From Parasynechococcus marenigrum WH 8102 (GTDB taxonomy: Bacteria; Cyanobacteriota; Cyanobacteriia; PCC-6307; Cyanobiaceae): a stretch of 32,000 nucleotides of DNA. Positions 2,611 through 15,731 of this stretch are shown piece after piece. The position numbers and the translations under genes are program-made. The stretch is from contig NC_005070.1 of assembly GCF_000195975.1 (NCBI RefSeq), forward strand, positions 840,001 through 872,000, read 5' to 3'. The notes below the pieces were generated by a model. It worked only from the letters and a program-made list of their open reading frames with translations, made no database searches and was not told the DNA's origin. Positions within the stretch are counted from its first letter, which is position 1. Each line of letters begins with the position of its first letter.

Positions 2611-3783
2611 TTGCCACGAGTTTCCGAGACAGAAGCCTGGATCAAGCCCTTTAGGCGTCAGATCGCAGAGACCTGCGGTGAGAGTTGGTACGTCCGCAAC
2701 AATCGCGGTCGAATCCGTTTGGAGGTCCGTGATGCTGGGACCGTTTCACTTCCGTTCGAGTGGACTGCGCGTGGATCAGCGCTTGCCTTGCCCCGCATTC
2801 AACAGATCTTCAAGCGTTGGAACGGTGGACAGATCACCCTTGCCGCTGCAGCACAAAACGCTGACACCAGCAGCGCCCATCAGAAGCTGGATTTCAGCCA
2901 GTTGATCGAGAAATATCGGGCCTTCGTTCCTAACGCTGGCGACACCACCTGGCAGACCTTCTATCTGCCAGTCCTGCGCAACTGCGCCAAGGCATTCGAC
3001 GGCCGACCACCAGTGGACGGTGAAGCGCTGGCAATGGCTTGCCTCTCCCAGTGGGAACAGGGCTCACGGATGCGTCAGACCTCCCGTCAGAAGCTCTACG
3101 GCTTCTTGAACTGGGCGGTGCAACGTGGACACCTCAAGCCCATCTACAGCCCCCCTGCGGCGCTTCCTGAAGTGCTCAAGCCCAAGCGCATTGGCTATCC
3201 CCTCAGCGATGCGCAGATCCTGCAGCTGCTGGACAACCTCCCCGAGGGCGAGGCCCATGACCGTTGGCGATTCGCCATCCAGCTCTGTGCCGTTTACGGA
3301 TTGAGACCTGAGGAATTGCGCCATCTCCGCATCAAGGACGGGGCAAGCGGGGAAGAACTGTGGACGATTTATCAGAAATCCATGGGTGGCACCAAGGGAG
3401 CCAAGACAGAACCGCGGCGGTTGCACCCGCTGCTGCTGCGTGATGCCGATGGTTCCGCCATCGATTGGAAACTGCAGGCACGGTTGCAGGTTGGTGAACA
3501 GCTGCCGCCGTTGAACCGTGACGGTGATGGTGGCCAGGCTTTGAATCAGTACCTACGCAGACGCAAGGTCTGGATGGCGCTGCGGGGTGAAGCCGAGCAC
3601 CAGAGTGAACAGCTCACGCCCTATTCATTTAGGCACCGCTACGCAAAACAGGCTCACGCGGCACGGCTTGCCGTTGCAGAGATCAGCGAGGCCATGGGCC
3701 ACACCATCGAGGTGCATCTGAAGAGCTACGCGCGGTTCAAGCCCGATGCGACGGCTGCCAATTTCGCCGCAGTCAACGTCTGA
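2611..3783 (+). CDS. int: Tyrosine recombinase / phage-type integrase
   Basis: 390-aa ORF. It has box I GLRPEELRHL and box II TPYSFRHRYAKQA...AMGHTIEVHLKSYARF (R, H-x-x-R, H, Y catalytic set). It starts about 150 nt from the att-like repeat. The TTG start from the track is uncertain. Confidence 0.9.
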   Translation: MPRVSETEAWIKPFRRQIAETCGESWYVRNNRGRIRLEVRDAGTVSLPFEWTARGSALALPRIQQIFKRWNGGQITLAAAAQNADTSSAHQKLDFSQLIEKYRAFVPNAGDTTWQTFYLPVLRNCAKAFDGRPPVDGEALAMACLSQWEQGSRMRQTSRQKLYGFLNWAVQRGHLKPIYSPPAALPEVLKPKRIGYPLSDAQILQLLDNLPEGEAHDRWRFAIQLCAVYGLRPEELRHLRIKDGASGEELWTIYQKSMGGTKGAKTEPRRLHPLLLRDADGSAIDWKLQARLQVGEQLPPLNRDGDGGQALNQYLRRRKVWMALRGEAEHQSEQLTPYSFRHRYAKQAHAARLAVAEISEAMGHTIEVHLKSYARFKPDATAANFAAVNV

Positions 3784-3984
3784 TCACTTCTGCTCGTACA
3801 CCTTGCTTTCCAAGGCGTCTAAGCGCTTTAGAACGTCCTTCATCACCCCTTCGGTGCGGGGGGTAAGCGTTTGTTCAGACAGGGTTACCTCAAGTTTAAA
3901 ATTTATTTCAATTTGCTACCATTACAATCACTCCAATTTACTTCGGAAAAAACAAAGGATAATGATTTAGTTGATTCAAGCAAG

Positions 3985-6900
3985 ATGTCTCAATCATATT
4001 CTAGTGTGGGAAAATTAGATAGAAAAAGTTTCAAACCTTCCGGAAGTGATTATATATTATCGCCTCCGTCTTCGTATAGCAAAAGATTTGCGACCAAGTT
4101 CAAGAATTTCAATGCAAAATCGGACGTAATATCAATTGATCTTAGCGATTTTAATACGACATTGACGGGGATTTATATTGCCAGGTCAAAGAAAGAATTC
4201 AAAAAGGCACAGAAATCCGACAGTGCTTTTATCTATAATTGGAAAAATGGGAGATTATTTTTTAACGAAAATGGCAGTGCAAAAAAATACGGTGATGGTG
4301 GACTTATTGCACGTTTTGCAAAGAAGACACGTTTAAATGAAGAAAATATTATTTTCAATTTTGGCATTCATTCAACTTCAACGCCTGATCCAACACCAAC
4401 ACCAAGTTATTCAATAACAGCCGACAAGATTTCAGTCGATGAGGGAGATCGTGTTAATTGGACTATCACTACTAAAAATGTACGAAAAGGAACCAGGATA
4501 TTTGTGTCTGATGTTTTTGAAAGATCGAATAATATTTATGATAATTACAGTGATATGGATGGGTATGCTCTCGGTTCGGATGGATGGGAAAGTTACTATT
4601 TCAAGGTGAATTCAAAGGGTAAAGTTAAATTCTGGGATGAATGGAATGAGGATGGTATCACCGAGGGAGATGATTCTTATTATTATCAGTTTTACGAAGA
4701 TCCTGATTTTACAGAATTACTCGCGACATCTAAGACGGTTGAAATTATCGATACATCACAAGCACCTTCTGCAACTCCAACACCGGAACCAACTCCGGCA
4801 CCTTCTGCAACTCCAACACCAGAACCAACTCCAGAACCTTCTACAACTCCAACACCGGAACCAACTCCTGAACCCTCTACAGACCAGGGATTTCTAGATG
4901 ATTTCGCGAATAATTCATCTACCAGCGGTGTTATTTCTGTCGGGGATATTGTGAGTAGTGACTTGGAAACAACAGACGATGAAGATTGGTTCCAAATTTC
5001 TTTGACGGAAGAAAGAGTTTATCAATTTGATCTTGAGGGGATACAGTTGACTGACCCTCGAATGAGTCTGCATGGGCCTAGTTTAGAGGAATTAATTTAT
5101 GATGACGATGGAGGATCTGGATATAATTCTAAAATTGAATTTATAGCAACGTCGAGTGACAACTATTTTATTAGTGCAAAAAGTTGGGGGGAAACTGGTA
5201 CTTATACTTTGAAGGCAATAGATATCACTCCAACACCGGAACCAACTCCTGAACCCTCTACAGGCCAGGGACTTTTAGATGATTTCGCGAATAATTTATC
5301 TACCAGCGGTGTTATTTCTGTCGGGGTTATTGTGAGTGGTGACTTGGAAACAACAGACGATGAAGATTGGTTCCAAGTTTCTTTGAAGGAAGGAAGAGTT
5401 TATCAATTTGATCTTGAGGGGATACAGTTGACTGACCCTCAAATGAGTCTGCATGGGCCTAGTTCAGAGGAATTAATTTATGATGACGATGGAGGATCTG
5501 GATATAATTCTAAAATTGAATTTATAGCAACGTCGAGTGACAACTACTTTATTAGTGCAAAGAGTTGGTGGGAAACTGGTACTTATACTTTGAAGGCAAT
5601 AGATATCACTCCAACACCGGAACCAACTCCAGCACCTTCTACAACTCCAACACCAGAACCAACTCCAGAACCTTCTACAACTCCAACACCAGAACCAACT
5701 CCAGCACCTGCTACAACTCCAACACCGGAACCAACTCCAGCACCTTCCGCAACTCCAACACCGGAACCAACTCCAGCACCTTCCGCAACTCCAACACCAG
5801 AACCAACTCCAGCACCTGCTACAACTCCAACACCGGAACCAATACCAGTCCCCACACCTGAGCAGGATTCATCACCTACACCAACTGGTAATCCAACAAA
5901 TACAACCGATGGCGTCTTTTTGTATGGACCACGTCCGATGCAATCTGCTATTAAGACATTCTCAGGCACTGTTGGTGTAGGTGGGGAAGTAGATCGCTTT
6001 GAGATTTCATTTTTGGCTGGAGATGTGGTGAGCTTGTCGGTAGAAGCCGCTGACAATACCTGGCCGTTGCTGCGTCTGGTGGATGCAGAAGGACGCATTT
6101 TGGATCCAGTTAGCGCATACAACAACAATTCCGCCTCCACATCTGGTTATCGCGTTGATGTGGATGCAATGTTGTTCGCCGAGGTTTATGCCCAAAACTC
6201 ATTCACTGGCTCCTACAAACTGTATGTAGAGCGTTTTATTAATGAATCCCCACTTCGACCGATACCGAATGAACTATTAATATTGGTAGAACAGGACGCA
6301 ACGAACAGCGCAGATCAATACTCATCACGTTATCTATACTCTGATTCGGGATTGATTTACATCTCATTTGACTCGAGCCTGTCGGACGAACTTAAAAGTT
6401 GGTGGGAAGACGTATTTGCTGCGACGGATGCTGTGATTGAGCCGGAATTCGTGGTAGTTCCACAAAGTCACCCCAAATCACAGTTAGTAGTCAATCAGAC
6501 GTCATCATACTATGTTAGTGGTGATCATGCTGGGATTTATCAGTCTCCTAGTTATACCTATTCAGAGCTAAGCGATGAAAGCGCTTACAATTTTCAGAGA
6601 AAGAATAATCAAGGTGAAATTCTTCTCGCCGAAGCGGCTTTTTCTCATTCGACGCGTTTTGGTGGATCCCGAGAAGCTGGTTGGAAAAGCGTTGCGTTTC
6701 ATGAATTAGGGCATGCCCTAGGCCTAGAGCATCCTCACGACAGCTCTGATGGCGATGTTGATCGAATTATCGATACAAATGGAACAGTAATGTCCTATGA
6801 GAAAACACAGGATTCGGATGGTGATCCTGGCTTCACTGATCTGGATGTAAATGCGCTTCAGTTTGTATATGGCACAGAGACCGGTGTACTAACACCTTCG

Positions 6901-7350
6901 CCTTTAGAAGGGATTCCGCTCTTAATTGAGAGTCGCACATTTGATCTTTCAAAGCGATGGAAGTCGCCAATATTGTCAGCAGAATGGATTGGCGGTTACA
7001 CAATCCAGGAGCCCAGTTCGGGACTGTCAACCAAAGTCCTACAATTAACACGTTCGGAAGGTTATCTAGAAAACGAATCCAAAATTTGGCTGGATTTTGA
7101 TTTGGGAGACGGCCTGAAAAACTGGAATTCCCTTAATGGTTATTCCGAAGGATTTCACGATGTACTAATCCTTGGCAATTCTGTCACGTTTGAACCCGGC
7201 GAGGCCACAGCTTTGTTTGATCTTCCCATTGTTGCTGGAAGTCATGCAGAGAGCGATGAATGGGTGGATGTGACTGTGCGTCCGGAATACCCGGATCTCT
7301 ACAAAGCAGTTCCTGATTCGGCACTGCGGCTGACCATCGTCGATGCCTGA
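3985..7350 (+). CDS. Large multidomain serralysin-type (M10-like) zinc metalloprotease with PT-rich linkers, three PPC-like domains and a Calx-beta-like C-terminus
   Basis: Frame is open from 3871 and the first ATG is at 3985 (MSQSYSS). Zinc motif VAFHELGHALGLEHPHD lies at nt 6700-6735, with Met-turn TVMSY and DLDVNALQFVYG. Two near-identical domains plus one divergent domain have the pre-peptidase C-terminal pattern (DDEDWFQISL...YQFDL...GTYTLKAI). TPTPEPTPAPS linkers are present. The C-terminal VTFEPGEATALFDLPIVAGSHAESDEWVDVTV is Calx-beta-like. GC is very low. There is no N-terminal signal peptide. Confidence 0.85.
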   Translation: MSQSYSSVGKLDRKSFKPSGSDYILSPPSSYSKRFATKFKNFNAKSDVISIDLSDFNTTLTGIYIARSKKEFKKAQKSDSAFIYNWKNGRLFFNENGSAKKYGDGGLIARFAKKTRLNEENIIFNFGIHSTSTPDPTPTPSYSITADKISVDEGDRVNWTITTKNVRKGTRIFVSDVFERSNNIYDNYSDMDGYALGSDGWESYYFKVNSKGKVKFWDEWNEDGITEGDDSYYYQFYEDPDFTELLATSKTVEIIDTSQAPSATPTPEPTPAPSATPTPEPTPEPSTTPTPEPTPEPSTDQGFLDDFANNSSTSGVISVGDIVSSDLETTDDEDWFQISLTEERVYQFDLEGIQLTDPRMSLHGPSLEELIYDDDGGSGYNSKIEFIATSSDNYFISAKSWGETGTYTLKAIDITPTPEPTPEPSTGQGLLDDFANNLSTSGVISVGVIVSGDLETTDDEDWFQVSLKEGRVYQFDLEGIQLTDPQMSLHGPSSEELIYDDDGGSGYNSKIEFIATSSDNYFISAKSWWETGTYTLKAIDITPTPEPTPAPSTTPTPEPTPEPSTTPTPEPTPAPATTPTPEPTPAPSATPTPEPTPAPSATPTPEPTPAPATTPTPEPIPVPTPEQDSSPTPTGNPTNTTDGVFLYGPRPMQSAIKTFSGTVGVGGEVDRFEISFLAGDVVSLSVEAADNTWPLLRLVDAEGRILDPVSAYNNNSASTSGYRVDVDAMLFAEVYAQNSFTGSYKLYVERFINESPLRPIPNELLILVEQDATNSADQYSSRYLYSDSGLIYISFDSSLSDELKSWWEDVFAATDAVIEPEFVVVPQSHPKSQLVVNQTSSYYVSGDHAGIYQSPSYTYSELSDESAYNFQRKNNQGEILLAEAAFSHSTRFGGSREAGWKSVAFHELGHALGLEHPHDSSDGDVDRIIDTNGTVMSYEKTQDSDGDPGFTDLDVNALQFVYGTETGVLTPSPLEGIPLLIESRTFDLSKRWKSPILSAEWIGGYTIQEPSSGLSTKVLQLTRSEGYLENESKIWLDFDLGDGLKNWNSLNGYSEGFHDVLILGNSVTFEPGEATALFDLPIVAGSHAESDEWVDVTVRPEYPDLYKAVPDSALRLTIVDA
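4762..4881 (+). repeat. 36-bp tandem repeat (about 3.3 units) encoding a (A/E)PS(A/T)TPTPEPTP linker
   Basis: Units begin at 4762, 4798 and 4834 with 1-4 substitutions each. They are in frame within the protease gene. Confidence 0.85.
4861..5622 (+). repeat. 2 x 381-bp in-frame tandem duplication (PPC-like domain plus linker)
   Basis: ccaactcctgaaccctctaca recurs at 4861 and 5242, and the next unit boundary falls at 5623. By eye the two 127-codon units differ at about 15 nt. Confidence 0.9.
5608..5859 (+). repeat. 36-bp tandem repeat (7 units) encoding a TPTPEPTPAPS(A/T) linker
   Basis: Units of actccaacaccRgaaccaactccagcaccttcYRca begin at 5608, 5644, 5680, 5716, 5752, 5788 and 5824. The last unit is degenerate. 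Confidence 0.85.
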
Positions 7351-7604
7351 GCGGCACTATCTGAAGGGAATGCTTGTGTGGAGATCTTCAGAATTGCATC
7401 CTGTAAGAATCTAAGAATTACATTCTGTCTTCAATTCAATAGTGAGCCTCAATACTTACGGTACTTTGATGGCTAGGATCTCGAAATCCTGAAACAGACA
7501 TATTGAGTTCCTGTCAAGGTCATAATCATACTTGGCGTTGCAATCAAAATGGACAGGCCTGTAAATCCTCCGTACCTTCAACGTCGAACGCAAATTCCTT
7601 TGCT

Positions 7605-8834
7605 ATGACTGAACTCTCGCCCCTGGTCTCAACCACCACGGGCTTTCTGGTGTTGTTCGTGGGCAAACGCTTGAACCGCGAACTTAAGGCATTGCGAAAC
7701 TTTTCGATTCCAGAACCTGTATCGCGAGGACTTCTCGTAGCCGTCCTTTTGACACTGATACACGTATTGGGTGGGCCCGAACTCAATTTTAACCTGGATT
7801 CTCGGGACTTCCTTCTGGTTTATTTCTTCACCACGGTGGGGATGAATGCCCGTTTCAGTGATTTAAGGCGCGGCGGCCCGGCACTGTTCATTCTTCTGGG
7901 CCTGACCATCGGCTACATGACGTTGCAGAACATCATTGGCGTCACGATGGCGGGTTTGCTGGGGCTTCATCCCGCCACGGGATTGCTCGTTGGCACGGTG
8001 TCACTGATTGGTGGACACGGCACAACGATTGCCTGGGCTCCCACATTTACAGAGAACTTCCAGATTGACAGCGCCCTTGAAATCGGTATTACTGCTGCCA
8101 CCTTTGGACTTGTTCTTGCCAGTGCCAGCGGCGGCCCAATTGCCCAGTTCCTATTACGTCGTTTTAAGATTCCCTGCCCAAGTACAACGCCAGAAGATCA
8201 AACCCTGAAGCACCCAGTCAATGACGTGCAAGATCATGTATCTGGAAAAAGGAATATCGACATGACCTCCTTCCTGGCAGCGCTCTTGGCCATCAATATC
8301 TGCATCATCTCCGGCATGGTGCTGAACGGTGGCATCGCGGCTATCGGCCTGAAGCTGCCTTTGTTTGTGCCCTGTCTGCTGGTCGGCATTCTCTATTCGA
8401 ATCTGCTCCCAGAGAGACGTTCTGAGCGGGCCGTCTTCCATTGGCCAAAACAGTCCACTTCGCTGGATTTAATCAGCGAACTTTCATTGGGAATCTTCTT
8501 AGCCATGTCCCTAATGAGCTTGCAACTTTGGACCTTGGTCGGCCTTGCCTTGCCTTTGCTGGCCATCCTCCTGACCCAGTTCATCATTGCTCTGGCCATC
8601 AATCTGCTGCTCGTATTCCGACTGATGGGAAGGTCGTATGACGCAGCTGTCATCTGCGCAGGCTTTGGTGGGATCGCTCTGGGTTCCACACCAACGGCCA
8701 TGGCAAACATGACCGCCGTTACGCAGCAGTATGGAGCCTCGACGCGAGCGTTTCTAATTGTTCCCTTGGTGTCCGCTTTTTTCCTCGATCTCGTCAATGC
8801 AATTCTGATACCTGGTTTTATTGGGCAGCTCTAG
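7605..8834 (+). CDS. gltS: Sodium/glutamate symporter (GltS family)
   Basis: About 410-aa polytopic membrane protein. FFTTVGMNARFSDLRRGGPALFILLGLT...LQNIIGV...GSVSLIGGHGT-like VGTVSLIGGHGTTIAWAP...ATFGLVLASASGGPIAQFLL matches my memory of E. coli GltS. The track ORF starts at 7503, but the ATG at 7605 (MTELSPLV) removes a non-membrane leader. Confidence 0.8.
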   Translation: MTELSPLVSTTTGFLVLFVGKRLNRELKALRNFSIPEPVSRGLLVAVLLTLIHVLGGPELNFNLDSRDFLLVYFFTTVGMNARFSDLRRGGPALFILLGLTIGYMTLQNIIGVTMAGLLGLHPATGLLVGTVSLIGGHGTTIAWAPTFTENFQIDSALEIGITAATFGLVLASASGGPIAQFLLRRFKIPCPSTTPEDQTLKHPVNDVQDHVSGKRNIDMTSFLAALLAINICIISGMVLNGGIAAIGLKLPLFVPCLLVGILYSNLLPERRSERAVFHWPKQSTSLDLISELSLGIFLAMSLMSLQLWTLVGLALPLLAILLTQFIIALAINLLLVFRLMGRSYDAAVICAGFGGIALGSTPTAMANMTAVTQQYGASTRAFLIVPLVSAFFLDLVNAILIPGFIGQL

Positions 8835-8966
8835 GAAGACAATCATTAATTCCCAATGTAAACCCACGGTGACGTCACGGCAAAGCAAAGGCTAGTGATT
8901 GTAGTTAGTTTCTATAATTTACAAATATCTGGCAAGCAATGCCTCTGTAAATACAGGGGCTTCACA

Positions 8967-9515
8967 CTATCTAAAATGTCCTTTGGGCCAAATTGAAATT
9001 CTCAACATCGGCCCATCACTGGTTATTGGATCATCACCAGCTGGAATCAAACTTGTGGACCAGTCGTAGATGTCTTCATCAGGGTTGAAACTGTGGAAGA
9101 CGACATTGGCTTGCTTCCCTGGTTCAATCGCTGGATTGAAGCGAATACTTAGCTTGTCGCCGCTTTCCGACAAAATAGTCTGTACGAGCCCAGGCTCGCC
9201 GCGACGTCGTAGGCCATATTGACCGAAATACATCTCGGGTTCGCTTCGACCCCAATCCCAGTGATGGTTATTGGTGAGCTGTGAAAGAATCAAGAATTCC
9301 AGTTCCGCCCCAGCATCCTCTGGGACACGAATACTGATGGTGGTTCGGTTGCGGAGTCCTTCGGTTTTCTCAGGATTGTGAATGCTGACTTCCGTCGGTG
9401 CTTTCGTGAAAACGGTTTGTCCAGAAGCTAGGTCGCTGCTCAGCAGAAGAGCGAAACCACTCAGCAGATGAAGGGTGAATCTGATCAAAGGATGTTTTGT
9501 CGGTGATGAGGTCAC
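8967..9515 (-). CDS. Exported protein, DUF2808-like (182 aa)
   Basis: Has a signal-like N-terminus (LLSGFALLLSSDLASGQ). The layout TVFTKAP...ISIRVPEDAGAELEFLILSQ...RRRGEPG...LSIRFNPAIEPGK...IPAGDDP...LRISI resembles the cyanobacterial DUF2808 family as I recall it, not database-checked. Its ATG overlaps the upstream stop (ATGA at 9515-9512). Confidence 0.6.
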   Translation of the reverse strand: MTSSPTKHPLIRFTLHLLSGFALLLSSDLASGQTVFTKAPTEVSIHNPEKTEGLRNRTTISIRVPEDAGAELEFLILSQLTNNHHWDWGRSEPEMYFGQYGLRRRGEPGLVQTILSESGDKLSIRFNPAIEPGKQANVVFHSFNPDEDIYDWSTSLIPAGDDPITSDGPMLRISIWPKGHFR

Positions 9516-9757
9516 TGCTGCTCTGTTCGGTATGGGCTCTCTTGATCGTTGATGACCTTGATGGAGCAGGTCACACCACCATCGGAATTTCCTTGACTGT
9601 CGTGGCTGCCATCACAGTCGACAAGCTCTAAGCGGGTTCCAGGTCCAACTTCCACTCGTCCCTTCTTCCGGAAGAACACCTCACCATCACGAGCAAGGCC
9701 TGGCGCAGCAAATGAAACAAGCGCCAGAGCAGTGAATAGTGCTTTCAATCCAAACAA
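9512..9757 (-). CDS. Small secreted protein (81 aa, 2 Cys)
   Basis: TTG start. Signal peptide MFGLKALFTALALVSFAAPGLA. The stop overlaps the start of the downstream gene. Confidence 0.5.
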   Translation of the reverse strand: MFGLKALFTALALVSFAAPGLARDGEVFFRKKGRVEVGPGTRLELVDCDGSHDSQGNSDGGVTCSIKVINDQESPYRTEQQ

Positions 9758-9766
9758 AGTCGTTGA

Positions 9767-10018
9767 TCAGAGGATACCGAGAGGACCTTTCTTCTTCTTG
9801 CAATAGCCCATGCCGATGTTCATCCACCCCGATTGACAGGCCTCACCGTTGGTAGGAGCCACCTCGTAGTAAATGGGGGAAACGCAAGTAGTGCCAAAGG
9901 TGTTGACGTATCCCAGTGGGCACTCGTCATGACCTTCAGCCTTGGGGATTTCCTTCTGGGCTAGAGCAGGCGTAGCAGAAGCCAATACCAGGGAGGCTGT
10001 GAGCAGAGCTTTGAGCAT
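9767..10018 (-). CDS. Small secreted cysteine-rich protein (83 aa, 4 Cys in the mature part, C-terminal KKKKGPLGIL)
   Basis: Signal peptide MLKALLTASLVLASATPALAQ. Its ATG (10018-10016) overlaps the TGA of the upstream 53-aa ORF (TGATG). Confidence 0.6.
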   Translation of the reverse strand: MLKALLTASLVLASATPALAQKEIPKAEGHDECPLGYVNTFGTTCVSPIYYEVAPTNGEACQSGWMNIGMGYCKKKKGPLGIL

Positions 10019-10179
10019 CAGAAAAGGAAGTAAGCCAGAAGGAAGCCAATGATCAGGCCTTTGACCCAGACGAGGGCAGCCATCCCATATTCAGTCAGAC
10101 CGAGCTTCTTCCTGATCCAAAGGAAGGCCTGCTCATCAGCGAAGAGAACAGCTCGGATAGGGCGAACAATCCAGTCCAT
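10018..10179 (-). CDS. Unannotated 53-aa tail-anchored membrane protein
   Basis: Below the ORF-track size cutoff. My translation is MDWIVRPIRAVLFADEQAFLWIRKKLGLTEYGMAALVWVKGLIIGFLLAYFLF. Both its start (10179-10177) and its stop (10020-10018) sit in TGATG overlaps with the neighbouring genes. Confidence 0.55.
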   Translation of the reverse strand: MDWIVRPIRAVLFADEQAFLWIRKKLGLTEYGMAALVWVKGLIIGFLLAYFLF

Positions 10180-10430
10180 CACTGCCCAACCAGTTGCAGG
10201 TATTTCGCCACGTCACCACCGTTGCAGTAGTGGACAGCGACTGGGCGCTCAATGAATCCACCCTTGCCCTCTACATCGGTGAACTCGACGCCAGCCAGGT
10301 TGATGATCCCCGTCTCAGCGTTCTTGACGCAGTTCACAAACTCCTTTGATTGCTTAGCCACCGGGAGTAGGAGGACCAGCCCAGCAAGAACAGCAGCTCC
10401 GACCAGACCCTTCTCAACGTTGGGATTCAT
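10179..10430 (-). CDS. Small membrane-anchored or exported protein (83 aa, 2 Cys)
   Basis: ATG start. Hydrophobic N-terminal segment GLVGAAVLAGLVLLLPVA. It is the first gene of a tightly overlapped minus-strand gene string. Confidence 0.55.
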   Translation of the reverse strand: MNPNVEKGLVGAAVLAGLVLLLPVAKQSKEFVNCVKNAETGIINLAGVEFTDVEGKGGFIERPVAVHYCNGGDVAKYLQLVGQ

Positions 10431-10809
10431 TCGGTGTGGATTGTTACCAGACAGGTTTTAGGCGTGAGCCTGACTCTTGTCCACGTGAACGGGGTCAAAT
10501 CCAGCAAAACAGAACTATCACTCACCATTGAGGGCGGATAAACACCACATCAACAGAGCACCTGATTCACCGGTACCAGCTCCACTCCTTACGAAAGACG
10601 CCTTTACCAACTGGATATTCCAACAGTTGGCCGTTGAGTAGTGGACAACTACGCAGAAGCGACGAAGCTATGAGTACATGCAAGTTCAAGGCAGCCGATC
10701 TAGGTCACCGATCCACTGCCACCAGCCAAAGAGAAGAAGCGTCGAGGCAGCCATCAGCGCAAGCCTGAAAAGAACGGGTTCTGCAAACCACAACTGAGGA
10801 TCAACAACC

Positions 10810-11433
10810 ATGGAAACCAAGACACGAAAAGCAGCCACAGCTCACAAGATCATCGAGGCAGGAGAAGGTGTTCTGAATCTGGTCTGGGGCAAAGCCGATG
10901 AAAGGAGAGCAGCTTCGCTTGAGATCATTGCTCGCACTGCTTACACAGCAGAGGAGAGTGCCTGCCACTACCTAGAGACCATTGGTCTCGATAAAGAAGG
11001 CACGATCAGGGACACATTGGAACTGGCTCGTTACCAGGACACCAATGAGCAGACCCACGAGGACATTTTCGCCAGGGATCTAGATGGATTGAAGAACTGG
11101 GGTGACCGCTTCTTAGCCAGACACATCGCCGTGGTCATCTATTGGGTGTTCGCCATCACAACCCTTATTGACCATGAGATGGCTGCCTTGCTGGGTGAGG
11201 CCGTTGAGGTCGAGGCAGTCAAGACGTACAGGCGGATGCTGAAGGAGCAACCAGAGGAGTGGCTAGACCAGCCAGCAGCACCAACCGCAACTCACTACTG
11301 GGAGAAGCCCAACAGCATGTGGCGAGTAAGAGGTGACCATATGCCTGGCTCTATGCGTGACGTAGTGGAAGCGATCGTTAGAGACGAAGCAGACCACGTC
11401 AAAGCCAATAGCAAGAAAGCAACAGCTTTTTAA
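10810..11433 (+). CDS. ptox: Plastoquinol terminal oxidase (PTOX, alternative-oxidase family di-iron protein)
   Basis: All four AOX/PTOX iron-ligand motifs occur in order: LEIIARTAY, NEQTHE (E-x-x-H), EVEAVKTY and RDEADH (E-x-x-H). The length of 207 aa is in the range of cyanobacterial and cyanophage PTOX. Confidence 0.85.
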   Translation: METKTRKAATAHKIIEAGEGVLNLVWGKADERRAASLEIIARTAYTAEESACHYLETIGLDKEGTIRDTLELARYQDTNEQTHEDIFARDLDGLKNWGDRFLARHIAVVIYWVFAITTLIDHEMAALLGEAVEVEAVKTYRRMLKEQPEEWLDQPAAPTATHYWEKPNSMWRVRGDHMPGSMRDVVEAIVRDEADHVKANSKKATAF

Positions 11434-11490
11434 TCGGAGACTGAAATGCTTGCGATTGATTACCTGGTGTAATCCGTTGTTGCGCCACTG

Positions 11491-11644
11491 CCCGATGAGA
11501 TCGACCTACAGCACTGCGAGGAGTGCAGTATCAGTGGGTTTGCGGGTCTCCCTGACGGTGGGTTGACCGTTAGGTCGGCTGAGGCGTAACAGCGGGGAAT
11601 ATCTCAGGCAGTCACGTCTGACCAATGCCTCAAGACACCTGCAT
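11491..11644 (+). repeat. Copy A of a conserved GC-rich non-coding element (about 154 nt)
   Basis: Aligns block-wise with 13473-13639. Shared blocks are CCCGATGAGAT, CAGCACTGCGAGGAG, CCCTGACGGTG, CGTTAGGTC, GCAGCGGGGAA and an identical GGCAGTCACGTCTGACCAATGCCTCAA. Contains the hairpin CCTGACGG-8nt-CCGTTAGG. Confidence 0.7.
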
Positions 11645-11843
11645 CTCCCTGTTCCTACTGGCTGAACTGTTTGCAGCACTGCAAGCCAATGCCTCTGACC
11701 TGTTCAAGCGGTGGCTGTATGGGGGTATCCAAGACCTAGGTGAAGCTGCCGTGACGGAGCTACTGCTGGATTGGATTGACCCGTTCATCACCCGAGTCGA
11801 GAGGGACAGGATTGTGACGTGGCACCTGGGAGTGAGCCTCTAA
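11625..11843 (+). CDS. Hypothetical protein (72 aa), possibly the 5' part of a frameshifted gene
   Basis: Its ATG lies inside the conserved end of repeat copy A. The next frame is open from 11836 and overlaps this stop. Confidence 0.35.
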   Translation: MPQDTCISLFLLAELFAALQANASDLFKRWLYGGIQDLGEAAVTELLLDWIDPFITRVERDRIVTWHLGVSL

Positions 11844-11874
11844 CCAGAACGGCATCAAGCCCAGCATCAGGACA

Positions 11875-12099
11875 GTGGCAGAAGGGCTGCCTCAGCACTC
11901 TGCTGAAGCGATCAGGTCCAGCATCAAGCGGCTGAGAGGCAAGGAGTGGCTGCTGGGAGAGGGCAGATCCAAAGGACCTGAGATCGTGCCTGATGGAAGT
12001 GGTGCCAAAGTTTCTTTTAGACACCCACTCCCTTTGAAAAAGGCCATGGCCCATAAAAAATGGCCCATAAATTTTGGATGTGGGCCATTCGGGTCATGA
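11875..12099 (+). CDS. Hypothetical protein (74 aa), weak HTH-like segment
   Basis: GTG start. AEGLPQHSAEAIRSSIKRLRGKEWLL looks HTH-like. The 3' end is made of the ATGGCCCA repeats, which argues against normal coding there. Confidence 0.25.
   Translation: MAEGLPQHSAEAIRSSIKRLRGKEWLLGEGRSKGPEIVPDGSGAKVSFRHPLPLKKAMAHKKWPINFGCGPFGS
12042..12088. promoter_or_regulatory. Operator-like cluster: ATGGCCCA x2 direct repeats plus one inverted TGGGCCAT
   Basis: ATGGCCCATAAA occurs at 12046 and 12060 (14-nt spacing). The reverse complement TGGGCCAT is at 12081-12088. The palindrome GGCCATGGCC is at 12042-12051. Confidence 0.4.
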
Positions 12100-12391
12100 G
12101 ATATGTGCCGCGCATAATTGCAGTCAGTGACTGGTGTTTCCCTTGATATGGGCTGTGTGTAGTGGTGTGTGTGTTGGGAGGAGAGAGTGTTATTCCACTT
12201 CTGCTGTCATCTGATCAGCAGCAAGCACCGGTTCACCAGAGGCTGACGACTAAAAAGCTCTATCTACGGCATTTCAAGCGCTCTTGGTGGTCTGCTGATG
12301 TGATGACTTCTTGGAACTCCCTTCTCTAGGTGTGGCTATCCGCAGTGCTTGAAGCCATGGCTTCTATCTCTCGGCAGTCAGGATTTGTGGT

Positions 12392-12652
12392 ATGGAAAGA
12401 AAGATTCGCCAGACCTACAGACCACGTGGCCACAGATGGCTGGTGAATGTTGACCAGCACAAGGTTGTTGAGTTCCAGCCCGAAGAGCCAACAGCAGATG
12501 GTCAGTGGGTGACACTGCGCACCTTTCACTGGCGCCCGCCTGATTGCCCGATTCCTGAGACGCGTCGACGGATGGCTAGACACAAGGCCATTGAGGCTTG
12601 GGAGACAATGGTTAGTACCGGATGGCGGCGATGTTCACCACCAGTGAGATGA
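12392..12652 (+). CDS. Small basic Trp-rich protein (86 aa), possibly DUF1651-like
   Basis: ATG start, no overlapping alternative apart from the 3' end. The C-terminal ARHKAIEAWETMVSTGWRR resembles small marine-picocyanobacterial families, from memory only. Confidence 0.45.
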   Translation: MERKIRQTYRPRGHRWLVNVDQHKVVEFQPEEPTADGQWVTLRTFHWRPPDCPIPETRRRMARHKAIEAWETMVSTGWRRCSPPVR

Positions 12653-12744
12653 TCCTGGCGTCATAGGGAATGCCAGCATCTTCGGGATGCGCCTCAGCCC
12701 ACCGGCAACGTATGCCTCCCAGCAATCGCCCACGTCGCCGACGA

Positions 12745-12963
12745 TCAGGATCGGAGCGATAGACGTCCTCCAGAAATTGAATTGTGCAAAAGGTCGGATG
12801 CGTACCTGCGTCCAGCTTTGTTCGCATCGGTGATTGACTTAAAGTTTCCTACAAAGTCATATTCACGCCCATCAATCGTGGCAGAAACGGCGTATAGATT
12901 CTGATTCACCTTTTGGACGCTCCAGCGCAAAACGCAGGCCGGAGTTTTCTTTGAAGCATTCAT
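12745..12963 (-). CDS. Hypothetical protein (72 aa), possibly frameshifted with 12612-12827
   Basis: Track ORF that overlaps a second minus-strand ORF in another frame. No motif recognised. Confidence 0.25.
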   Translation of the reverse strand: MNASKKTPACVLRWSVQKVNQNLYAVSATIDGREYDFVGNFKSITDANKAGRRYASDLLHNSISGGRLSLRS

Positions 12964-13140
12964 TCTTCTCTCCTGATCGGACGAAGAACATAAGCCGCAG
13001 GGAACCAGAGACTCGCTAAAGATTATTATTTCGCAAATAAGTATTTATTTTCTGTTCATATTCTACTCAAGAAGTTCTGTGAAGATATCTATTGAATGAC
13101 GCTTTTTTGCGCAAGCTACCAGAAAAGGGAGGAATGCCCC

Positions 13141-13374
13141 ATGAAATTGTTTGCATATTCCGTCTCGGTCCTTTTGATATCAGCAGCACCTGCGCACTCT
13201 TCCAGCGACAAGCAAGTCTTCCTGTCAATGAAGAAGTTTGAGCAGTTGGCTGACAGGGCACATGCCTTTTGCGCGAGCGTTGACCTTGAGTTCTCTCAAA
13301 AGTTCTATGACTGCATGGACCAGAAGATGCATGGAATTTATATCGACAGCAGCACGGTTAGATCACGTAATTAA
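13141..13374 (+). CDS. Small secreted protein (77 aa)
   Basis: The ATG at 13141 is preceded by AAAAGGGAGGAA (a Shine-Dalgarno-like site). Signal peptide MKLFAYSVSVLLISAAPAHS. Low GC, like the adjacent protease cassette. Confidence 0.6.
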   Translation: MKLFAYSVSVLLISAAPAHSSSDKQVFLSMKKFEQLADRAHAFCASVDLEFSQKFYDCMDQKMHGIYIDSSTVRSRN

Positions 13375-13472
13375 TATGAATACGGGTCCTTCCTGTGTAG
13401 TACAGCGTAGGTCAATTCGGACCTCCTTCATCATTTAGTGCCCGATAAGTTTGGCCTAAATGGGGCCATCAA

Positions 13473-13639
13473 CCCGATGAGATTGCCCGGCAGCACTGCG
13501 AGGAGATGCATCAGCGATGGGTGGTGTGTGACTGCCCTGACGGTGTGCTGGGGAGGCTTTGGTGGTGGGTTAGTCGTTAGGTCTGCAGCGGGGAACACTT
13601 CTGGCAGTCACGTCTGACCAATGCCTCAAAATACCGCAT
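13473..13639 (+). repeat. Copy B of the conserved GC-rich non-coding element (about 167 nt)
   Basis: Has the same blocks as copy A. The hairpin is kept as CCTGACGG-~30nt-TCGTTAGG (C to U gives G.U). It is GC-rich yet embedded in low-GC DNA on both sides, and it ends about 97 nt upstream of the second metzincin ATG. Confidence 0.7.
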
Positions 13640-13735
13640 TGTAATGTTCCTTTAGGAGGGGTAATATCAAGAAATAGTGACATTAATTGACTCAGCGCAA
13701 GTCAATTCTAATATTGTATATATCGCAAATTATCA

Positions 13736-15001
13736 ATGAAACCGATTGAGGCAATTGAGCTAATTATGTCTCAAGCCCATATTGACGACATGAAGACTAT
13801 TGTCGGCAGCGACTTAATCTTAGACATATACATATCACCAGGAGGAGAACCTCACATAGCGTGGGATGATAGAGCGCAAGAGGACGTGGAAACTATAACT
13901 AAAAAGCCGGCCGAATGGCAATATAAAGTAATGCGTGAAGCCATGGAGAGAGTCAACAGGGAATTTGATATTACCATTGACGAGGTTGAATATGAACAGC
14001 TTTCAGACACACAAATAAAGCTAACGACCGTTCCTAATTCGGATGCCGTGAATGGTGAATGGATAAGAAGTTGGGATAACAGCGGGGTTGCGGATATTTA
14101 TCTATCGATGACATATCAGAGTGGCCTGGAGGGTAGTAAATATCCAGATGCCCATGAAAATCCTGACAAATATACTCATGACGAATGGGAAAAATCCGAG
14201 TGGAAAAAGATTTTTATTCATGAACTTGGCCATTTGCTTGGCCTCGAACATCCTTGGGACAAAGATGATGGAGACTGGGCAGTTGATGGTCCAGACGTAG
14301 AAACAGAGAAAACGATCATGGGATATGAAAGTAGGGATGCCAGCGGCAAAGTAATGGACTGGTTCCAGGATGTAGATCAGCGCGCTTTGAAACAAATATG
14401 GGGTGCATCAACAGCTAATCCCGAACCAACTCCTGAACCGGTTCCAACCCCTACTCCAGAACCAACGCCTGCAACTGTTCTTACACCCACGCCAGAACCA
14501 CCGCCAACGCCATCTCTAGAACTACCACCATCGCCATTATCACCACCAATTGATGGTGACTTCTCATCTCTACCACCCGACTTATGGCTGTCGCAAACTC
14601 ACGACGTCATCATTCAATCAGTTCGTGGTAAGGGTAAATTAAAGGGTAAGAAAGGTGCAGATGCCTTCTATTTTAATTCCTTTGAGGCATTTACTAAAAA
14701 GTCTGCTGACAAGATCATTGGATTTAAAGCATCGCAAGACACAATTGCCGTAAGTCCCGATGCGTTTCCTGCATTGGAAGGTGTCTCCGCTATCAGGTTT
14801 GCATCGACCAAGAGCAAAAATGAATTAAAGCAATTATCCAAGGAGGATTACGATTTTGTCTATTTTGAGAAAAAAGGTCGGCTCTACTTCGATGGAAATG
14901 GCGCAGAGAAGAACTGGGGAAACAGTGATGAAGGAGGTCTTGTGGCAATCCTGAAAGGAAAGCCTGAGCTAACTGTTGAAGACATCACACTGCTTGCTTG
15001 A
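13736..15001 (+). CDS. Serralysin-type (M10-like) zinc metalloprotease with a PT-rich linker and a C-terminal post-RTX-like module
   Basis: Zinc motif IFIHELGHLLGLEHPWD at nt 14219-14254, Met-turn TIMGY and QDVDQRALKQIWG. The linker is NPEPTPEPVPTPTPEPTPA. The C-terminus is GKKGADAFYF...DKIIGF...DTIAV...FVYFEKKGRLYFDGNG...GGLVAILKG...LTVEDITLL. Low GC and no signal peptide. Confidence 0.85.
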   Translation: MKPIEAIELIMSQAHIDDMKTIVGSDLILDIYISPGGEPHIAWDDRAQEDVETITKKPAEWQYKVMREAMERVNREFDITIDEVEYEQLSDTQIKLTTVPNSDAVNGEWIRSWDNSGVADIYLSMTYQSGLEGSKYPDAHENPDKYTHDEWEKSEWKKIFIHELGHLLGLEHPWDKDDGDWAVDGPDVETEKTIMGYESRDASGKVMDWFQDVDQRALKQIWGASTANPEPTPEPVPTPTPEPTPATVLTPTPEPPPTPSLELPPSPLSPPIDGDFSSLPPDLWLSQTHDVIIQSVRGKGKLKGKKGADAFYFNSFEAFTKKSADKIIGFKASQDTIAVSPDAFPALEGVSAIRFASTKSKNELKQLSKEDYDFVYFEKKGRLYFDGNGAEKNWGNSDEGGLVAILKGKPELTVEDITLLA

Positions 15002-15025
15002 TAAAGCTTCAACTGCAAACCCATA

Positions 15026-15051
15026 GCCCCGTTAGCAATGGCGGGGTTTTT
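15026..15051 (+). terminator. Rho-independent terminator
   Basis: CCCCG-ttagcaatgg-CGGGG followed by TTTTT, 25 nt after the protease stop. It lies between convergent genes. Confidence 0.6.
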
Positions 15052-15060
15052 GATGGGTAC

Positions 15061-15411
15061 CTAGCTGCCCTCCAGCAATCTGGTTGGCTGTGCCTGGAGC
15101 TTGAGGGCACCAACGGCGTTGCTGTGTTGCTTGCAGCGGATACTGGCTTCGATAATTTCGTCTAGCAGGGCAAGACGCGTTCTGAGGAAGTCAGAGCGTT
15201 CAACGCTGTAGTCAGCCCGGATGATCTCTCTTGCTTTGGCGAGATAGCGCTCAGCGGTTCTGCGATCAACCCCCCATTCGTCCGATGCGTATTGACAGAC
15301 GTAGCTAGTTGTCTTTGCCGACGACAGAAGTTTGACGACGGTATGAATCCGCCGATCAATTTCTGCTTTGTCTGACTTCTTCGCCATTGACTCATTCTGC
15401 CATGAAGTCAC
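15061..15411 (-). CDS. HTH-like island protein (116 aa), regulator or small-terminase-like
   Basis: YASDEWGVDRRTAERYLAKAREIIRADY resembles the HTH N-termini of phage regulators and small terminases. MAKKSDK at 15387 is an alternative start. The function is not established. Confidence 0.55.
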   Translation of the reverse strand: MTSWQNESMAKKSDKAEIDRRIHTVVKLLSSAKTTSYVCQYASDEWGVDRRTAERYLAKAREIIRADYSVERSDFLRTRLALLDEIIEASIRCKQHSNAVGALKLQAQPTRLLEGS

Positions 15412-15572
15412 TAAACGGCACGATTTACCTCAATTGGATGGGTTTTTCTGTCGCTCGCGCGTATTTCATAAAGCTCCAAAACTCAGTAGTGTTTCAGAGA
15501 GAGACGTGGAGAGAGAGTTGTTAGAGAGAAGGATTAGGGAGAATGGAGGTTTTGGAACATTCAGCCTGTTTT

Positions 15573-15607
15573 GACATGTCGAAACTGCATTAGACATTCC
15601 GAAACTG
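15573..15607. promoter_or_regulatory. Iteron-like direct repeats (candidate origin or operator)
   Basis: GACATGTCGAAACTG (15573-15587) and GACATTCCGAAACTG (15593-15607) have 20-nt periodicity. A GAGAGAGA-rich tract lies just upstream (about 15493-15545). The repeats sit in the 320-nt gap next to the ATPase gene. Confidence 0.4.
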
Positions 15608-15731
15608 GTTTGGGAACTCGGTGAGTGGGACAAAGGCTCCGATACTGAATCCAGTGCAGGACTGAGGTTTTTGCCGATTTAGCGAATGTTTTGGATTTTG
15701 GATCCCCCCACGCTAAGAATTGCAAAACGGG

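What the first reader, a model, noticed from the sequence alone, without database searches (positions are those of the whole stretch)
8967..10430. Five-gene translationally coupled operon encoding only small exported or membrane proteins, including an unannotated 53-aa gene
On the minus strand, five ORFs (83, 53, 83, 81 and 182 aa) follow one another. The junctions are TGATG overlaps at 10179 and 10018, a 9-nt gap, and an ATGA overlap at 9515-9512. Every product has a signal peptide or a single hydrophobic anchor. Three carry paired cysteines, one ends in KKKKGPLGIL, and the last looks DUF2808-like. The overlaps imply fixed stoichiometry, consistent with a periplasmic or envelope complex. I recognise no described function for this set. 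It is island cargo, divergent from ptox and convergent with gltS.
Basis: partly seen in the sequence, partly recalled or inferred. Interest (0 to 1): 0.65.

Follow-up and report, generated by a model that had tools for sequence, protein, structure and literature searches.

The report
Modular island cassette of small exported proteins
Five tightly packed genes for small membrane or exported proteins in a marine Synechococcus genomic island are all real and conserved, but they are one lineage's version of a mix-and-match cassette rather than a fixed five-part machine, and their function is still unknown.

Summary
The five minus-strand ORFs exist as described (A 83 aa, B 53 aa, C 83 aa, D 81 or 78 aa, E 182 aa). 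All five are conserved under purifying selection, so they are real genes, including the 53-aa one.

- The D/E junction is GTGA (GTG start), not ATGA.
- D more likely starts at TTG 9748, which gives 78 aa and an 18-nt gap.
- The exact 53-aa protein is already in NCBI nr and UniRef.

The window is Synechococcus WH8102. The genes are cargo of a 16-kb island integrated at tRNA-Pro. E is a DUF2808 protein. A-D match no Pfam, NCBIfam, PADLOC, PHROG or PDB entry.

The five-gene set occurs only in near-identical clade-III contigs. Elsewhere the units recombine:
- A-B is an invariant pair with a TGATG overlap.
- A-B is followed by C, or by other small secreted cysteine proteins (X, Y).
- C stands alone in 63 of 97 loci.
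- E is a relaxed island paralogue of a core gene.
- Close relatives carry disrupted alleles of A, D and E.

This argues against an obligate five-subunit complex. My best reading is a co-transcribed, modular envelope cassette of unknown function. Interest is modest.

The parts
10179..10430 (-). Gene A (83 aa). It has an N-terminal hydrophobic anchor or signal sequence (residues 5-28) and a ~55-aa exported domain with two conserved Cys (C34, C69). It is the head of the cassette.
   Evidence: ORF. Hydrophobicity. 309 homologues, the 120 listed all at 80% identity or more. dN/dS 0.03-0.09. Always followed by B through a TGATG overlap. No Pfam, NCBIfam, PADLOC or PDB match.
10018..10179 (-). Gene B (53 aa). 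It has a conserved N-terminal ~30 aa (FADEQAFLWIKKKLGLTEYQMAAL) and a C-terminal hydrophobic segment (31-53), so it looks like a tail-anchored membrane protein.
   Evidence: ORF and TGATG overlaps at both ends. 19 distinct homologous sequences aligned. dN/dS 0.04-0.13 at dS of about 1 or more. The ATG is the start, because the upstream GTG is CTG in L099. The exact sequence is in NCBI nr and UniRef on 547 contigs.
9767..10018 (-). Gene C (83 aa). It has a variable Sec-type signal peptide (...ALA|QKE) and a very conserved 63-aa mature peptide. The peptide contains two 13-residue Cys-closed loops (CPLGYVNTxGTTC and CxxGWMNIGxGYC) and a KKKKGPLGIL tail. It is the most widespread and most mobile unit.
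   Evidence: 389 homologues. Sequences and alignment, with C33, C45, C61 and C73 invariant. dN/dS 0.02-0.09. Alone in 63 of 97 loci. At least 23 upstream and 30 downstream flank classes. Only 113 clusters at 50% identity among 1.84 billion proteins. AF2 pLDDT 73, small beta fold, no PDB analogue.
9512..9757 (-). Gene D. It is 81 aa from TTG 9757, or more likely 78 aa from TTG 9748. It has a signal peptide (...GLA|RDGE) and a ~59-aa mature peptide with two conserved Cys and an Asp/Gly/Ser-rich loop (DCDGSHDSxGNSDGG).
   Evidence: ORF. Start-codon comparison. RS9915 annotation of 78 aa. Homologues after C in L024, L025 and L031, dN/dS 0.07-0.09. Stop allele in L007.
8967..9515 (-). Gene E (182 aa, GTG start overlapping D's stop as GTGA). 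It has an N-terminal helix (anchor or signal) and a DUF2808 Ig-like beta-sandwich. It is an island paralogue of a core DUF2808 gene.
   Evidence: Pfam PF10989, 39.4 bits. AF2 pLDDT 78 with helix 9-29 and beta strands. Weak fold matches at TM about 0.4. A core paralogue at 62% identity lies next to TerC and mfd, and both copies are present in SAG AG-670-A05. dN/dS 0.24-0.5. K38-stop alleles.
10455..10460 (-). -10-like hexamer TAAAAC, 24 nt upstream of A's ATG. This is the probable promoter of the cassette (inferred).
   Evidence: A TAnAAc-type hexamer lies in the same place in the 10 aligned sequences, which come from about 8 distinct lineages. T, A and A at hexamer positions 1, 2 and 4 are invariant. 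The rest of the upstream DNA is not conserved. The generic sigma-70 scan did not call it.
8864..8880 (-). Weak terminator-like hairpin, 87 nt downstream of E's stop, between the convergent E and gltS genes.
   Evidence: The number of such sites in the region does not exceed the shuffled expectation, so this is only a candidate.
10810..11433 (+). Divergent neighbour: an alternative-oxidase family gene (PTOX).
   Evidence: Pfam AOX, E = 8.6e-13. It is also adjacent to an A-B-X-C cassette in a different arrangement in L107.
7503..8834 (+). Convergent neighbour: the sodium/glutamate symporter gltS. The coordinates give the longest ORF; relatives are called at 409 aa.
   Evidence: Pfam Glt_symporter, E = 2e-110. 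Gene calls in relatives.
2407..18476 (.). 16-kb low-GC integrative island that carries the cassette. It is bounded by a 51-nt direct repeat (2407-2457 and 18426-18476), which is the 3' part of tRNA-Pro(tgg) at 18431-18505. A tyrosine integrase (2611-3783) sits at one end. AAA_25 (15732-16988) and HTH_17-like (17610-17915) genes sit at the other end.
   Evidence: Repeat. tRNA. GC 38-55% inside against 59-66% outside (mostly 61-63%). Pfam hits.

Best explanation
This is a real cluster of five small genes, probably co-transcribed and translationally coupled. It is carried as cargo on a tRNA-Pro-integrated island of Synechococcus WH8102. It is not a fixed five-part unit. It is the clade-III version of a modular cassette.

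Shown:
- The head of the cassette is a membrane pair. A has an N-terminal anchor and a ~55-aa exported, disulfide-capable domain. B is a 53-aa tail-anchored protein.
- The A and B genes always overlap as TGATG.
- Downstream lie interchangeable genes for small exported cysteine proteins with Sec-type signal peptides. C is the most common. X, Y or D occur in other lineages.
- In WH8102 the array ends with E, a redundant island copy of a core DUF2808 beta-sandwich protein.

Inferred:
- Transcription starts at a conserved -10-like box about 25 nt upstream of A.
- Coupling gives roughly equimolar A and B.
- The soluble products are exported by Sec and oxidised in the periplasm (or thylakoid lumen). 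They act at the cell envelope.
- C is the autonomous functional core. A-B is an accessory membrane module that docks or modulates it.

The biochemical function is unknown.
For: Real genes: ORFs. dN/dS is 0.02-0.1 for A-D at saturated dS, and 0.24-0.5 for E. Hundreds of homologues exist.

Export and membrane features: one hydrophobic segment per protein, -3/-1 cleavage motifs in C and D, conserved Cys pairs. The AF2 model of E has an N-terminal helix.

Coupling: the A-to-B TGATG is invariant in 6 distinct junction sequences. The B-to-C spacing is -4 to +7 nt in 11 of 17 distinct junction sequences. D-to-E is GTGA in both distinct junction sequences recovered.

Modularity:
- Full set only in 13 near-identical loci.
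- A-B-C or A-B-C-D in other genomic contexts.
- B-C in 13 loci.
- C alone in 63 of 97 loci.
- Evidence so far.
- A-B-X-C, A-B-Y, B-C-Y and B-C-D-Y also occur.
- C sits in at least 23 upstream flank classes.

Dispensability: A is frameshifted in RS9915, D has a stop in L007, and E has K38-stop in L005, L007 and L021. B and C are intact in all 13 clade-III loci.

E is a paralogue of a core gene.

Promoter-like box conserved in 10 aligned sequences from about 8 distinct lineages.

Island.
Against: - I found no transcript, ribosome-profiling or peptide evidence. SYNW0883-0886 are absent from the WH8102 proteome, exoproteome and Zur supplements that I could search. One of those files was truncated, and small secreted proteins are hard to detect.
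- The locus-tag numbering for these genes is inferred, so a different tag format or numbering would also give no hits.
- Signal peptides were judged by heuristics only.
- The idea that A-B docks C is pure inference. No multimer model could be run.
- C lacks A-B in most loci, and one lineage (L101, L108) has A-B without C.
- The metagenome survey was anchored on C. The frequency of A-B without C is therefore poorly sampled.
- Periplasm and thylakoid lumen cannot be told apart from sequence.
Confidence: 0.6

Rival explanations
1. One reading: the five products assemble into one periplasmic or envelope complex, with stoichiometry fixed by translational coupling.
For: Overlapping or near-overlapping stop and start codons run along the whole array. 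All products are exported or membrane-anchored. The set is perfectly syntenic in 13 clade-III loci.
Against: - Those 13 loci are nearly identical in sequence, so their synteny carries little weight.
- Outside them the set is never complete.
- C is alone in 63 of 97 loci.
- E is a relaxed paralogue with a recurrent K38-stop allele.
- D and A also have disrupted alleles in close relatives.
Confidence: 0.1
2. Bacteriocin-immunity-like module. C (and X, Y, D) would be secreted disulfide-bonded antimicrobial peptides. The small membrane protein B (with or without A) would be the cognate immunity factor.
For: The layout resembles class II microcin and bacteriocin operons: a small membrane-protein gene translationally coupled to a gene for a small secreted disulfide peptide (general knowledge of cvi-cvaC-type loci). 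The secreted partner downstream of B varies. The genes lie on a mobile island.
Against: - C has a Sec-type signal peptide, not a double-glycine leader.
- No ABC or PCAT exporter appears among the window ORFs whose Pfam domains I scanned.
- C lacks B in most loci. That would leave a toxin without immunity.
- Mature C is extremely conserved (dN/dS about 0.03-0.05), unlike arms-race toxins.
- No PADLOC or PHROG match.
Confidence: 0.08
3. There is no joint function. The array is an accretion of unrelated small 'hypothetical' island genes that share a promoter because islands are compact. Each product acts, or drifts, on its own.
For: Composition varies widely between lineages. Pseudogene alleles exist. 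The five proteins share no detectable sequence similarity apart from the signal peptides of C and D.
Against: - The A-B TGATG overlap is invariant.
- B never occurs without a coupled small secreted protein directly downstream.
- A to D are under strong purifying selection.
- Four of the five A-B contexts sampled through A itself (L099, L107, L110-115, and this window) have C within two genes downstream. The fifth (L101/L108) does not.
Confidence: 0.2
4. The cassette is functionally tied to its neighbours PTOX and/or gltS, for example as lumenal or envelope accessories to photoprotective electron flow.
For: PTOX and gltS flank the cassette here. They also sit next to an A-B-X-C cassette in a second arrangement in a lineage whose PTOX is 84% identical.
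Against: Other A-B-C loci lie in unrelated contexts: between DUF2227 and SulP in L099, near a Rieske oxygenase in L101 and L108, and elsewhere in L110-115. C occurs in many contexts without PTOX. Co-travel as island cargo is enough to explain the linkage.
Confidence: 0.04

Closest known systems
DUF2808 (Pfam PF10989), a cyanobacteria-restricted family of unknown function (e.g. Sll0470, All7597)
   Same: E scores above the Pfam gathering threshold over nearly the whole domain. Like Sll0470, it has an N-terminal hydrophobic helix followed by the domain (PMC6560206). A DUF2808 protein has been found in an Anabaena exoproteome (PMC10957091), which fits export.
   Different: E is an island-borne paralogue, 62% identical to the core copy that sits next to TerC and mfd. 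It is under relaxed constraint and carries nonsense alleles. The family itself has no known function.
Class II microcin/bacteriocin plus immunity operons (e.g. colicin V cvi-cvaC)
   Same: A small membrane-protein gene is translationally coupled to a gene for a small secreted disulfide-bonded peptide, on mobile DNA (comparison from general knowledge).
   Different: C has a Sec signal peptide instead of a double-glycine leader. No dedicated exporter is present. The peptide is usually found without the membrane protein. The mature sequence is highly conserved. Evidence.
Cargo of tRNA-targeting integrative islands and tycheposons of marine picocyanobacteria (Hackl et al., bioRxiv 10.1101/2020.12.28.424599)
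   Same: The island abuts tRNA-Pro(tgg), one of the tRNAs named as island hotspots in that preprint. It has a partial-tRNA direct repeat, a tyrosine recombinase, and helicase-like (AAA_25) and excisionase-like (HTH_17) genes.
   Different: The preprint describes Prochlorococcus elements. Membership of this Synechococcus island in the tycheposon family was not tested phylogenetically. The cargo here has no assigned ecological function.
Ig-like beta-sandwich surface domains (MSCRAMM adhesin domains, Thermus TTHA1873, copper-binding YcnI/DUF1775)
   Same: The AF2 model of E is a membrane-tethered beta-sandwich. Its best Foldseek matches are these proteins (E = 1e-4 to 5e-3).
   Different: TM-scores are only about 0.4 and sequence identity is 8-18%. 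E has no N-terminal His-brace like YcnI. This is a generic fold resemblance, not homology.

Membership tests
DUF2808 (PF10989) | Match to the Pfam HMM above the gathering score over most of the domain | tested here: met
   E scores 39.4 bits against a cut-off of 25.3, covering residues 34-167 and profile positions 2-138 of 146. Homologues are pre-annotated PF10989.
DUF2808 (PF10989) | Restricted to cyanobacteria, with an N-terminal hydrophobic segment before the domain | tested here: met
   All named homologues are from Synechococcus. The AF2 model has a helix at residues 9-29. The same architecture is described for Sll0470 in PMC6560206.
   The full set is found only in 13 near-identical clade-III loci. 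C is alone in 63 of 97 loci. Other combinations are B-C, A-B-C, A-B-X-C, A-B-Y and D-E.
   E has K38-stop in three relatives, D has a stop in L007, and A is frameshifted in RS9915. E has dN/dS of 0.24-0.5.
Translationally coupled gene pair (A-B) | Stop/start overlap conserved across divergent lineages, and the two genes always adjacent | tested here: met
   TGATG in all 6 distinct junction sequences despite dS of about 1 or more. A is never found without B in any locus.
Single transcription unit (operon) | One promoter, no internal terminator, one transcript | not testable with these tools
   Only indirect evidence is available: a conserved -10-like box upstream of A, no terminator-like sites above chance inside the array, and short junctions. 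Transcript data are needed.
Class II microcin/bacteriocin-immunity module | Double-glycine-type leader on the peptide and a dedicated ABC/PCAT exporter nearby | tested here: not met
   C has a Sec-type leader ending ALA|Q. No exporter appears among the window ORFs scanned with Pfam.
Class II microcin/bacteriocin-immunity module | The peptide gene is always linked to its immunity gene | tested here: not met
   C is found without B in 63 of 97 loci.
Known anti-phage defence or phage protein families | Match to PADLOC or PHROG profiles, or presence in phage genomes | tested here: not met
   No significant PADLOC or PHROG hits. C is absent from IMG/VR contigs and from GenBank phages.
Tycheposon-like tRNA-integrated island (context) | Full tRNA plus a partial-tRNA direct repeat flanking the element, and a tyrosine recombinase | tested here: met
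   A 51-nt repeat lies at 2407-2457 and 18426-18476 (98% identical) and overlaps tRNA-Pro(tgg). The integrase hits Pfam PF00589 at 31.7 bits.
Tycheposon-like tRNA-integrated island (context) | Family-specific hallmark replication and excision genes, and integrase phylogeny | tested here: inconclusive
   The AAA_25 hit is significant. The HTH_17 hit is below the gathering score. No phylogeny was run against tycheposon hallmark profiles.

The most novel reading that the evidence does not exclude
A-B is a previously undescribed minimal membrane module of marine Synechococcus. In this reading a signal-anchored periplasmic domain and a tail-anchored partner are made 1:1. The module docks or controls interchangeable, horizontally shuffled small disulfide-bonded envelope proteins (C, X, Y, D). 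The double-Cys-loop protein C would be a widespread, highly constrained ligand for a conserved envelope target. The whole would be a modular surface or periplasm system that travels on tRNA-targeting islands, sometimes together with PTOX.
Probability: 0.15. Interest if true: 0.6.

Novelty: new member of a known kind. Interest (0 to 1): 0.3.

Why it matters
Marine Synechococcus islands are full of small 'hypothetical' genes that are thought to tune niche adaptation.

This analysis gives three usable results:
- It shows that a 53-aa gene and three other family-less small genes are under strong selection.
- It defines the real evolutionary units: the A-B pair, the autonomous C peptide, and the swappable X, Y and D.
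- It separates them from a decaying DUF2808 paralogue.

That gives experimenters clear targets. A-B and C are the ones to knock out, and WH8102 is genetically tractable. It also gives annotators corrected gene models.

It does not resolve a long-standing question. If the products turn out to be ordinary periplasmic proteins, the result is of local interest only.

Tried and rejected
- Profile and structure searches for A-D gave nothing significant. I tried Pfam, NCBIfam, PADLOC, PHROGs, PDB sequence search, and Foldseek on the AF2 model of C.
- Weak hits were treated as chance: CPW_WPC (E = 0.033), Trp_syntA, a PHROG 'transcriptional regulator' hit on B (E = 0.3), and an Rfam snoR117 hit below threshold inside B.
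- My first genome-contig scan used a single protein (E).
- Viral contigs and GenBank phages contain no C homologue, so I dropped a phage origin.
- Literature searches found no mention of the genes. I searched SYNW088x tags, DUF2808, and WH8102 transcriptome and proteome supplements. Only SYNW0881 peptides turned up, and these fixed the identity of the window.
- I considered an HTH-like reading of B's 'KKLGLTEYQMAAL' segment and rejected it. The segment is too short, and the would-be recognition helix is the membrane segment.
- I considered a His-brace or YcnI-like copper site in E and rejected it, because E has no N-terminal histidine after the signal sequence.
- The six-frame neighbour clustering was dominated by shadow ORFs in alternative frames. 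I replaced it with clustering of the flanking DNA.
Full report
**Observation**

The minus strand between 8967 and 10430 carries five consecutive ORFs:
- A: 10430-10179, ATG start, 83 aa.
- B: 10179-10018, ATG start, 53 aa.
- C: 10018-9767, ATG start, 83 aa.
- D: 9757-9512, TTG start, 81 aa.
- E: 9515-8967, GTG start, 182 aa.

The A/B and B/C junctions are TGATG overlaps, exactly as reported. Two details need correcting.
- The D/E junction is GTGA with a GTG start, not ATGA.
- D more likely starts at the second TTG (9748), giving 78 aa and an 18-nt gap. The first TTG is CTG in strain RS9915. In three other lineages an ATG or GTG aligns with 9748. RS9915 annotates a 78-aa product.

Each protein has a single hydrophobic segment. 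It is N-terminal in A, C, D and E and C-terminal in B. A has 2 conserved cysteines, C has 4 and D has 2. C ends in KKKKGPLGIL. E matches DUF2808 above threshold.

**Are they genes?**

Yes. All five exact sequences are in public protein collections, on a longest contig of 2,434,428 bp. Two peptides reported for SYNW0881 in a WH8102 proteome supplement (PMC3865332) map to the ORF at 3871-7350. The window is therefore Synechococcus sp. WH8102.

Against divergent homologues, A to D show dN/dS of 0.02-0.1 with dS at or above 1. E shows 0.24-0.5 among close relatives.

The 53-aa ORF has 19 distinct homologous sequences with a conserved N-terminal region and hydrophobic tail. Its ATG must be the start, because the upstream GTG is CTG in one lineage.

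'Unannotated' cannot be checked for the source record. The exact protein is in NCBI nr and UniRef, and a homologue is annotated as QNJ13628.1. By tag arithmetic, one of the five may lack a tag in the original annotation. This rests on SYNW0881 being verified here and on PTOX being SYNW0887, which I recall from memory. It is inference only.

**Context**

The cluster lies in a low-GC block (38-55% against 59-66% in the flanks, mostly 61-63%). The block is bounded by a 51-nt direct repeat at 2407-2457 and 18426-18476. That repeat is the 3' part of tRNA-Pro(tgg) at 18431-18505. A tyrosine integrase (2611-3783) sits at one end. AAA_25 and HTH_17-like genes sit at the other end.

It is therefore cargo of a 16-kb tRNA-integrated island. 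The island is of the kind described for picocyanobacteria, where tRNA-Pro(tgg) is a named hotspot (bioRxiv 10.1101/2020.12.28.424599). An AOX-family gene (PTOX) is divergent from the cluster, and gltS is convergent with it.

**Known families**

E is DUF2808. A to D have no significant match in Pfam, NCBIfam, PADLOC, PHROGs or PDB sequences.

AF2 models:
- C (pLDDT 73) is a small beta structure with no PDB analogue.
- E (pLDDT 78) has an N-terminal helix and an Ig-like beta-sandwich. Its fold matches are weak and generic, with TM about 0.4 (TTHA1873, MSCRAMM domains, YcnI).

DUF2808 itself has no known function (PMC6560206, PMC10957091).

**Synteny survey**

I collected 115 related loci, anchored on B, C, A and E in turn. 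I scanned them with tblastn and iterated HMMs.

Results:
- The complete A-B-C-D-E set, with PTOX and gltS, occurs only in 13 contigs that are nearly identical to the window. These are clade-III genomes such as WH8103 and RS9915, plus metagenome contigs.
- A-B-C or A-B-C-D occurs in other genomic contexts, for example between DUF2227 and SulP genes in L099.
- B-C occurs in 13 loci.
- C occurs alone in 63 of 97 C-anchored loci. It sits in at least 23 upstream and 30 downstream flank classes.
- In A-anchored loci, A is always followed by B. The third gene varies. It can be C. It can be X, a 102-104-aa secreted 2-Cys protein, followed by C (L107, L114). It can be Y, a 72-87-aa secreted Cys protein, without C (L101, L108).
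- Y also follows C (L027), or follows D with a GTGA-type overlap (L024, L025).
- L107 has PTOX and gltS next to A-B-X-C, in a different order.
- L001 keeps only the 3' remnant of D plus E, next to integrase fragments.

Junction spacing:
- A to B is TGATG in all 6 distinct junction sequences.
- B to C is -4 to +7 nt in 11 of 17 distinct junction sequences, and about 70 nt in the other six.
- C to D is 9-22 nt.

**Family C**

The mature 63-aa peptide is about 85-95% identical across lineages, while the signal peptide varies freely. It has two Cys-closed 13-residue loops, CPxGYVNTxGTTC and CxxGWMNIGxGYC.

An exhaustive profile search of 1.84 billion representatives found only 113 clusters. Distant members keep the two loops (CPxGYVDTxxGxC ... 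CPxGWxNVGGGYCRK) but lack the GPLGIL tail. One protein carries three tandem copies of the loop.

All loci have Synechococcus-like GC content. No phage or viral contig encodes C.

**E and the loss-of-function alleles**

The nearest non-island relatives of E are 62% identical. They sit in a core context (TldD-fmt-...-TerC-Slr1353_N-DUF2808-mfd). The same single-cell genome (AG-670-A05) has both copies. E is therefore an island paralogue.

Three relatives, including a complete genome, carry K38-stop in E. One contig has a stop in D. RS9915 has a frameshift in A. B and C are intact in all 13 clade-III loci.

**Interpretation**

Shown:
- These are real genes, tightly packed on one strand.
- Their products have export or anchor features.
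- A-B coupling is invariant.
- The composition of the array is modular.
- C is autonomous and mobile.
- E is a dispensable paralogue.
- The genes are island cargo.

Inferred:
- A single promoter. A TAnAAc-type box lies about 25 nt upstream of A in the 10 aligned sequences, from about 8 distinct lineages, at 10460-10455 in the window.
- Sec export and disulfide formation in the periplasm or lumen.
- A and B form a 1:1 membrane pair that works with whichever small secreted protein follows.

A bacteriocin-immunity reading is disfavoured for three reasons:
- C has a Sec-type leader and no dedicated exporter.
- C usually lacks B.
- Mature C is very conserved.

A functional tie to PTOX is weakly suggested by two independent adjacencies. 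Most cassette loci lack PTOX, so co-travel as cargo explains the linkage.

I found no expression or proteomic evidence for SYNW0883-0886 in the supplements I could search. The tag numbers for these genes are inferred, which limits what that absence means.

**Verdict**

This is a genuine, correctly spotted cluster. It is one lineage's variant of a modular cassette of uncharacterised small envelope proteins, not a fixed machine. Novelty lies in the unnamed A-D families and in the pattern of an A-B head with swappable secreted partners. Function remains unknown. Interest is modest at 0.3.

Noticed in passing
window 2407-2457 and 18426-18476; tRNA-Pro 18431-18505 (-): A 51-nt direct repeat (98% identical) duplicates the 3' part of tRNA-Pro(tgg). 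It delimits a 16-kb low-GC integrative island. An integrase (2611-3783) lies at one end. AAA_25 (15732-16988) and HTH_17-like (17610-17915) genes lie at the other. The layout is tycheposon-like.
   Followed up: partly
window 3871-7350 (+): SYNW0881 is a 1159-aa protein with a PPC domain and a sub-threshold matrixin-like hit. It is full of internal repeats: units of 18 and 36 nt at 4718-5902, and two 300-nt copies at 4846-5526. It is the only gene of this neighbourhood with peptides in the WH8102 proteome supplement. Relatives L005 and L006 lack it, and there gltS abuts the integrase.
   Followed up: partly
window 11491-11639 and 13473-13635: Two stretches (33 and 50 nt aligned, 88% identical) form an imperfect direct repeat of about 150 nt. 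The copies flank a 2-kb segment of small ORFs between PTOX and a metallopeptidase-like gene. This could be a nested insertion or duplication scar.
   Followed up: no
window 13736-15001 (+): A second secreted metallopeptidase-like protein (421 aa; Reprolysin_4 and M10 hits) with a Pro/Thr/Glu-rich linker. The linker DNA is distantly repeated in SYNW0881 (repeat family D1, copy at 14391-14525).
   Followed up: no
L005 6665-7192, L007 6665-7213 and 6423-6668, L021 2683-3105, L004 5750-6001: Natural loss-of-function alleles in close relatives. E has K38-stop in three contigs, and L005 also has a 7-aa deletion in E's signal peptide. D has G38-stop in L007. A is frameshifted in RS9915. B and C stay intact.
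   Followed up: yes
L107 2985-3299; L110 1691-1999; L114 1196-1510: Family X is a 102-104-aa secreted protein with two Cys (LPPLDDFEIELRGEAQGWLN...SPGCRAVWPE). It is inserted between B and C, with a TGATG overlap to B. It has no Pfam match.
   Followed up: partly
L108 3398-3631; L024 955-1176; L025 2309-2527; L027 2926-3189: Family Y is a 72-87-aa secreted protein (YDNYTxFEACHDFLDGDQxIEDERWDIDFSKCLDxWPEL). It follows B, C or D in different lineages. After D it takes the position that E occupies in WH8102, with a similar 4-nt overlap.
   Followed up: partly
L069 4965-5216: A C homologue is interrupted by an in-frame stop after the first Cys loop. It is a probable pseudogene in one metagenome contig.
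   Followed up: no
L103-L105, about 3232-4546: The core DUF2808 paralogue sits directly downstream of a Slr1353_N-like gene, between TerC and mfd. This is a conserved core context, and it may be the better place to study DUF2808 function.
   Followed up: no
L015-L018, L030, L043 and others (15 loci), upstream of C: In one lineage, C sits just downstream of a ~195-aa multi-pass membrane protein (...LLKYLPGGIWHQVDRVRF...). DJ-1/PfpI, OsmC, Coq4 and SMR genes are nearby, giving a stress-gene neighbourhood.
   Followed up: no
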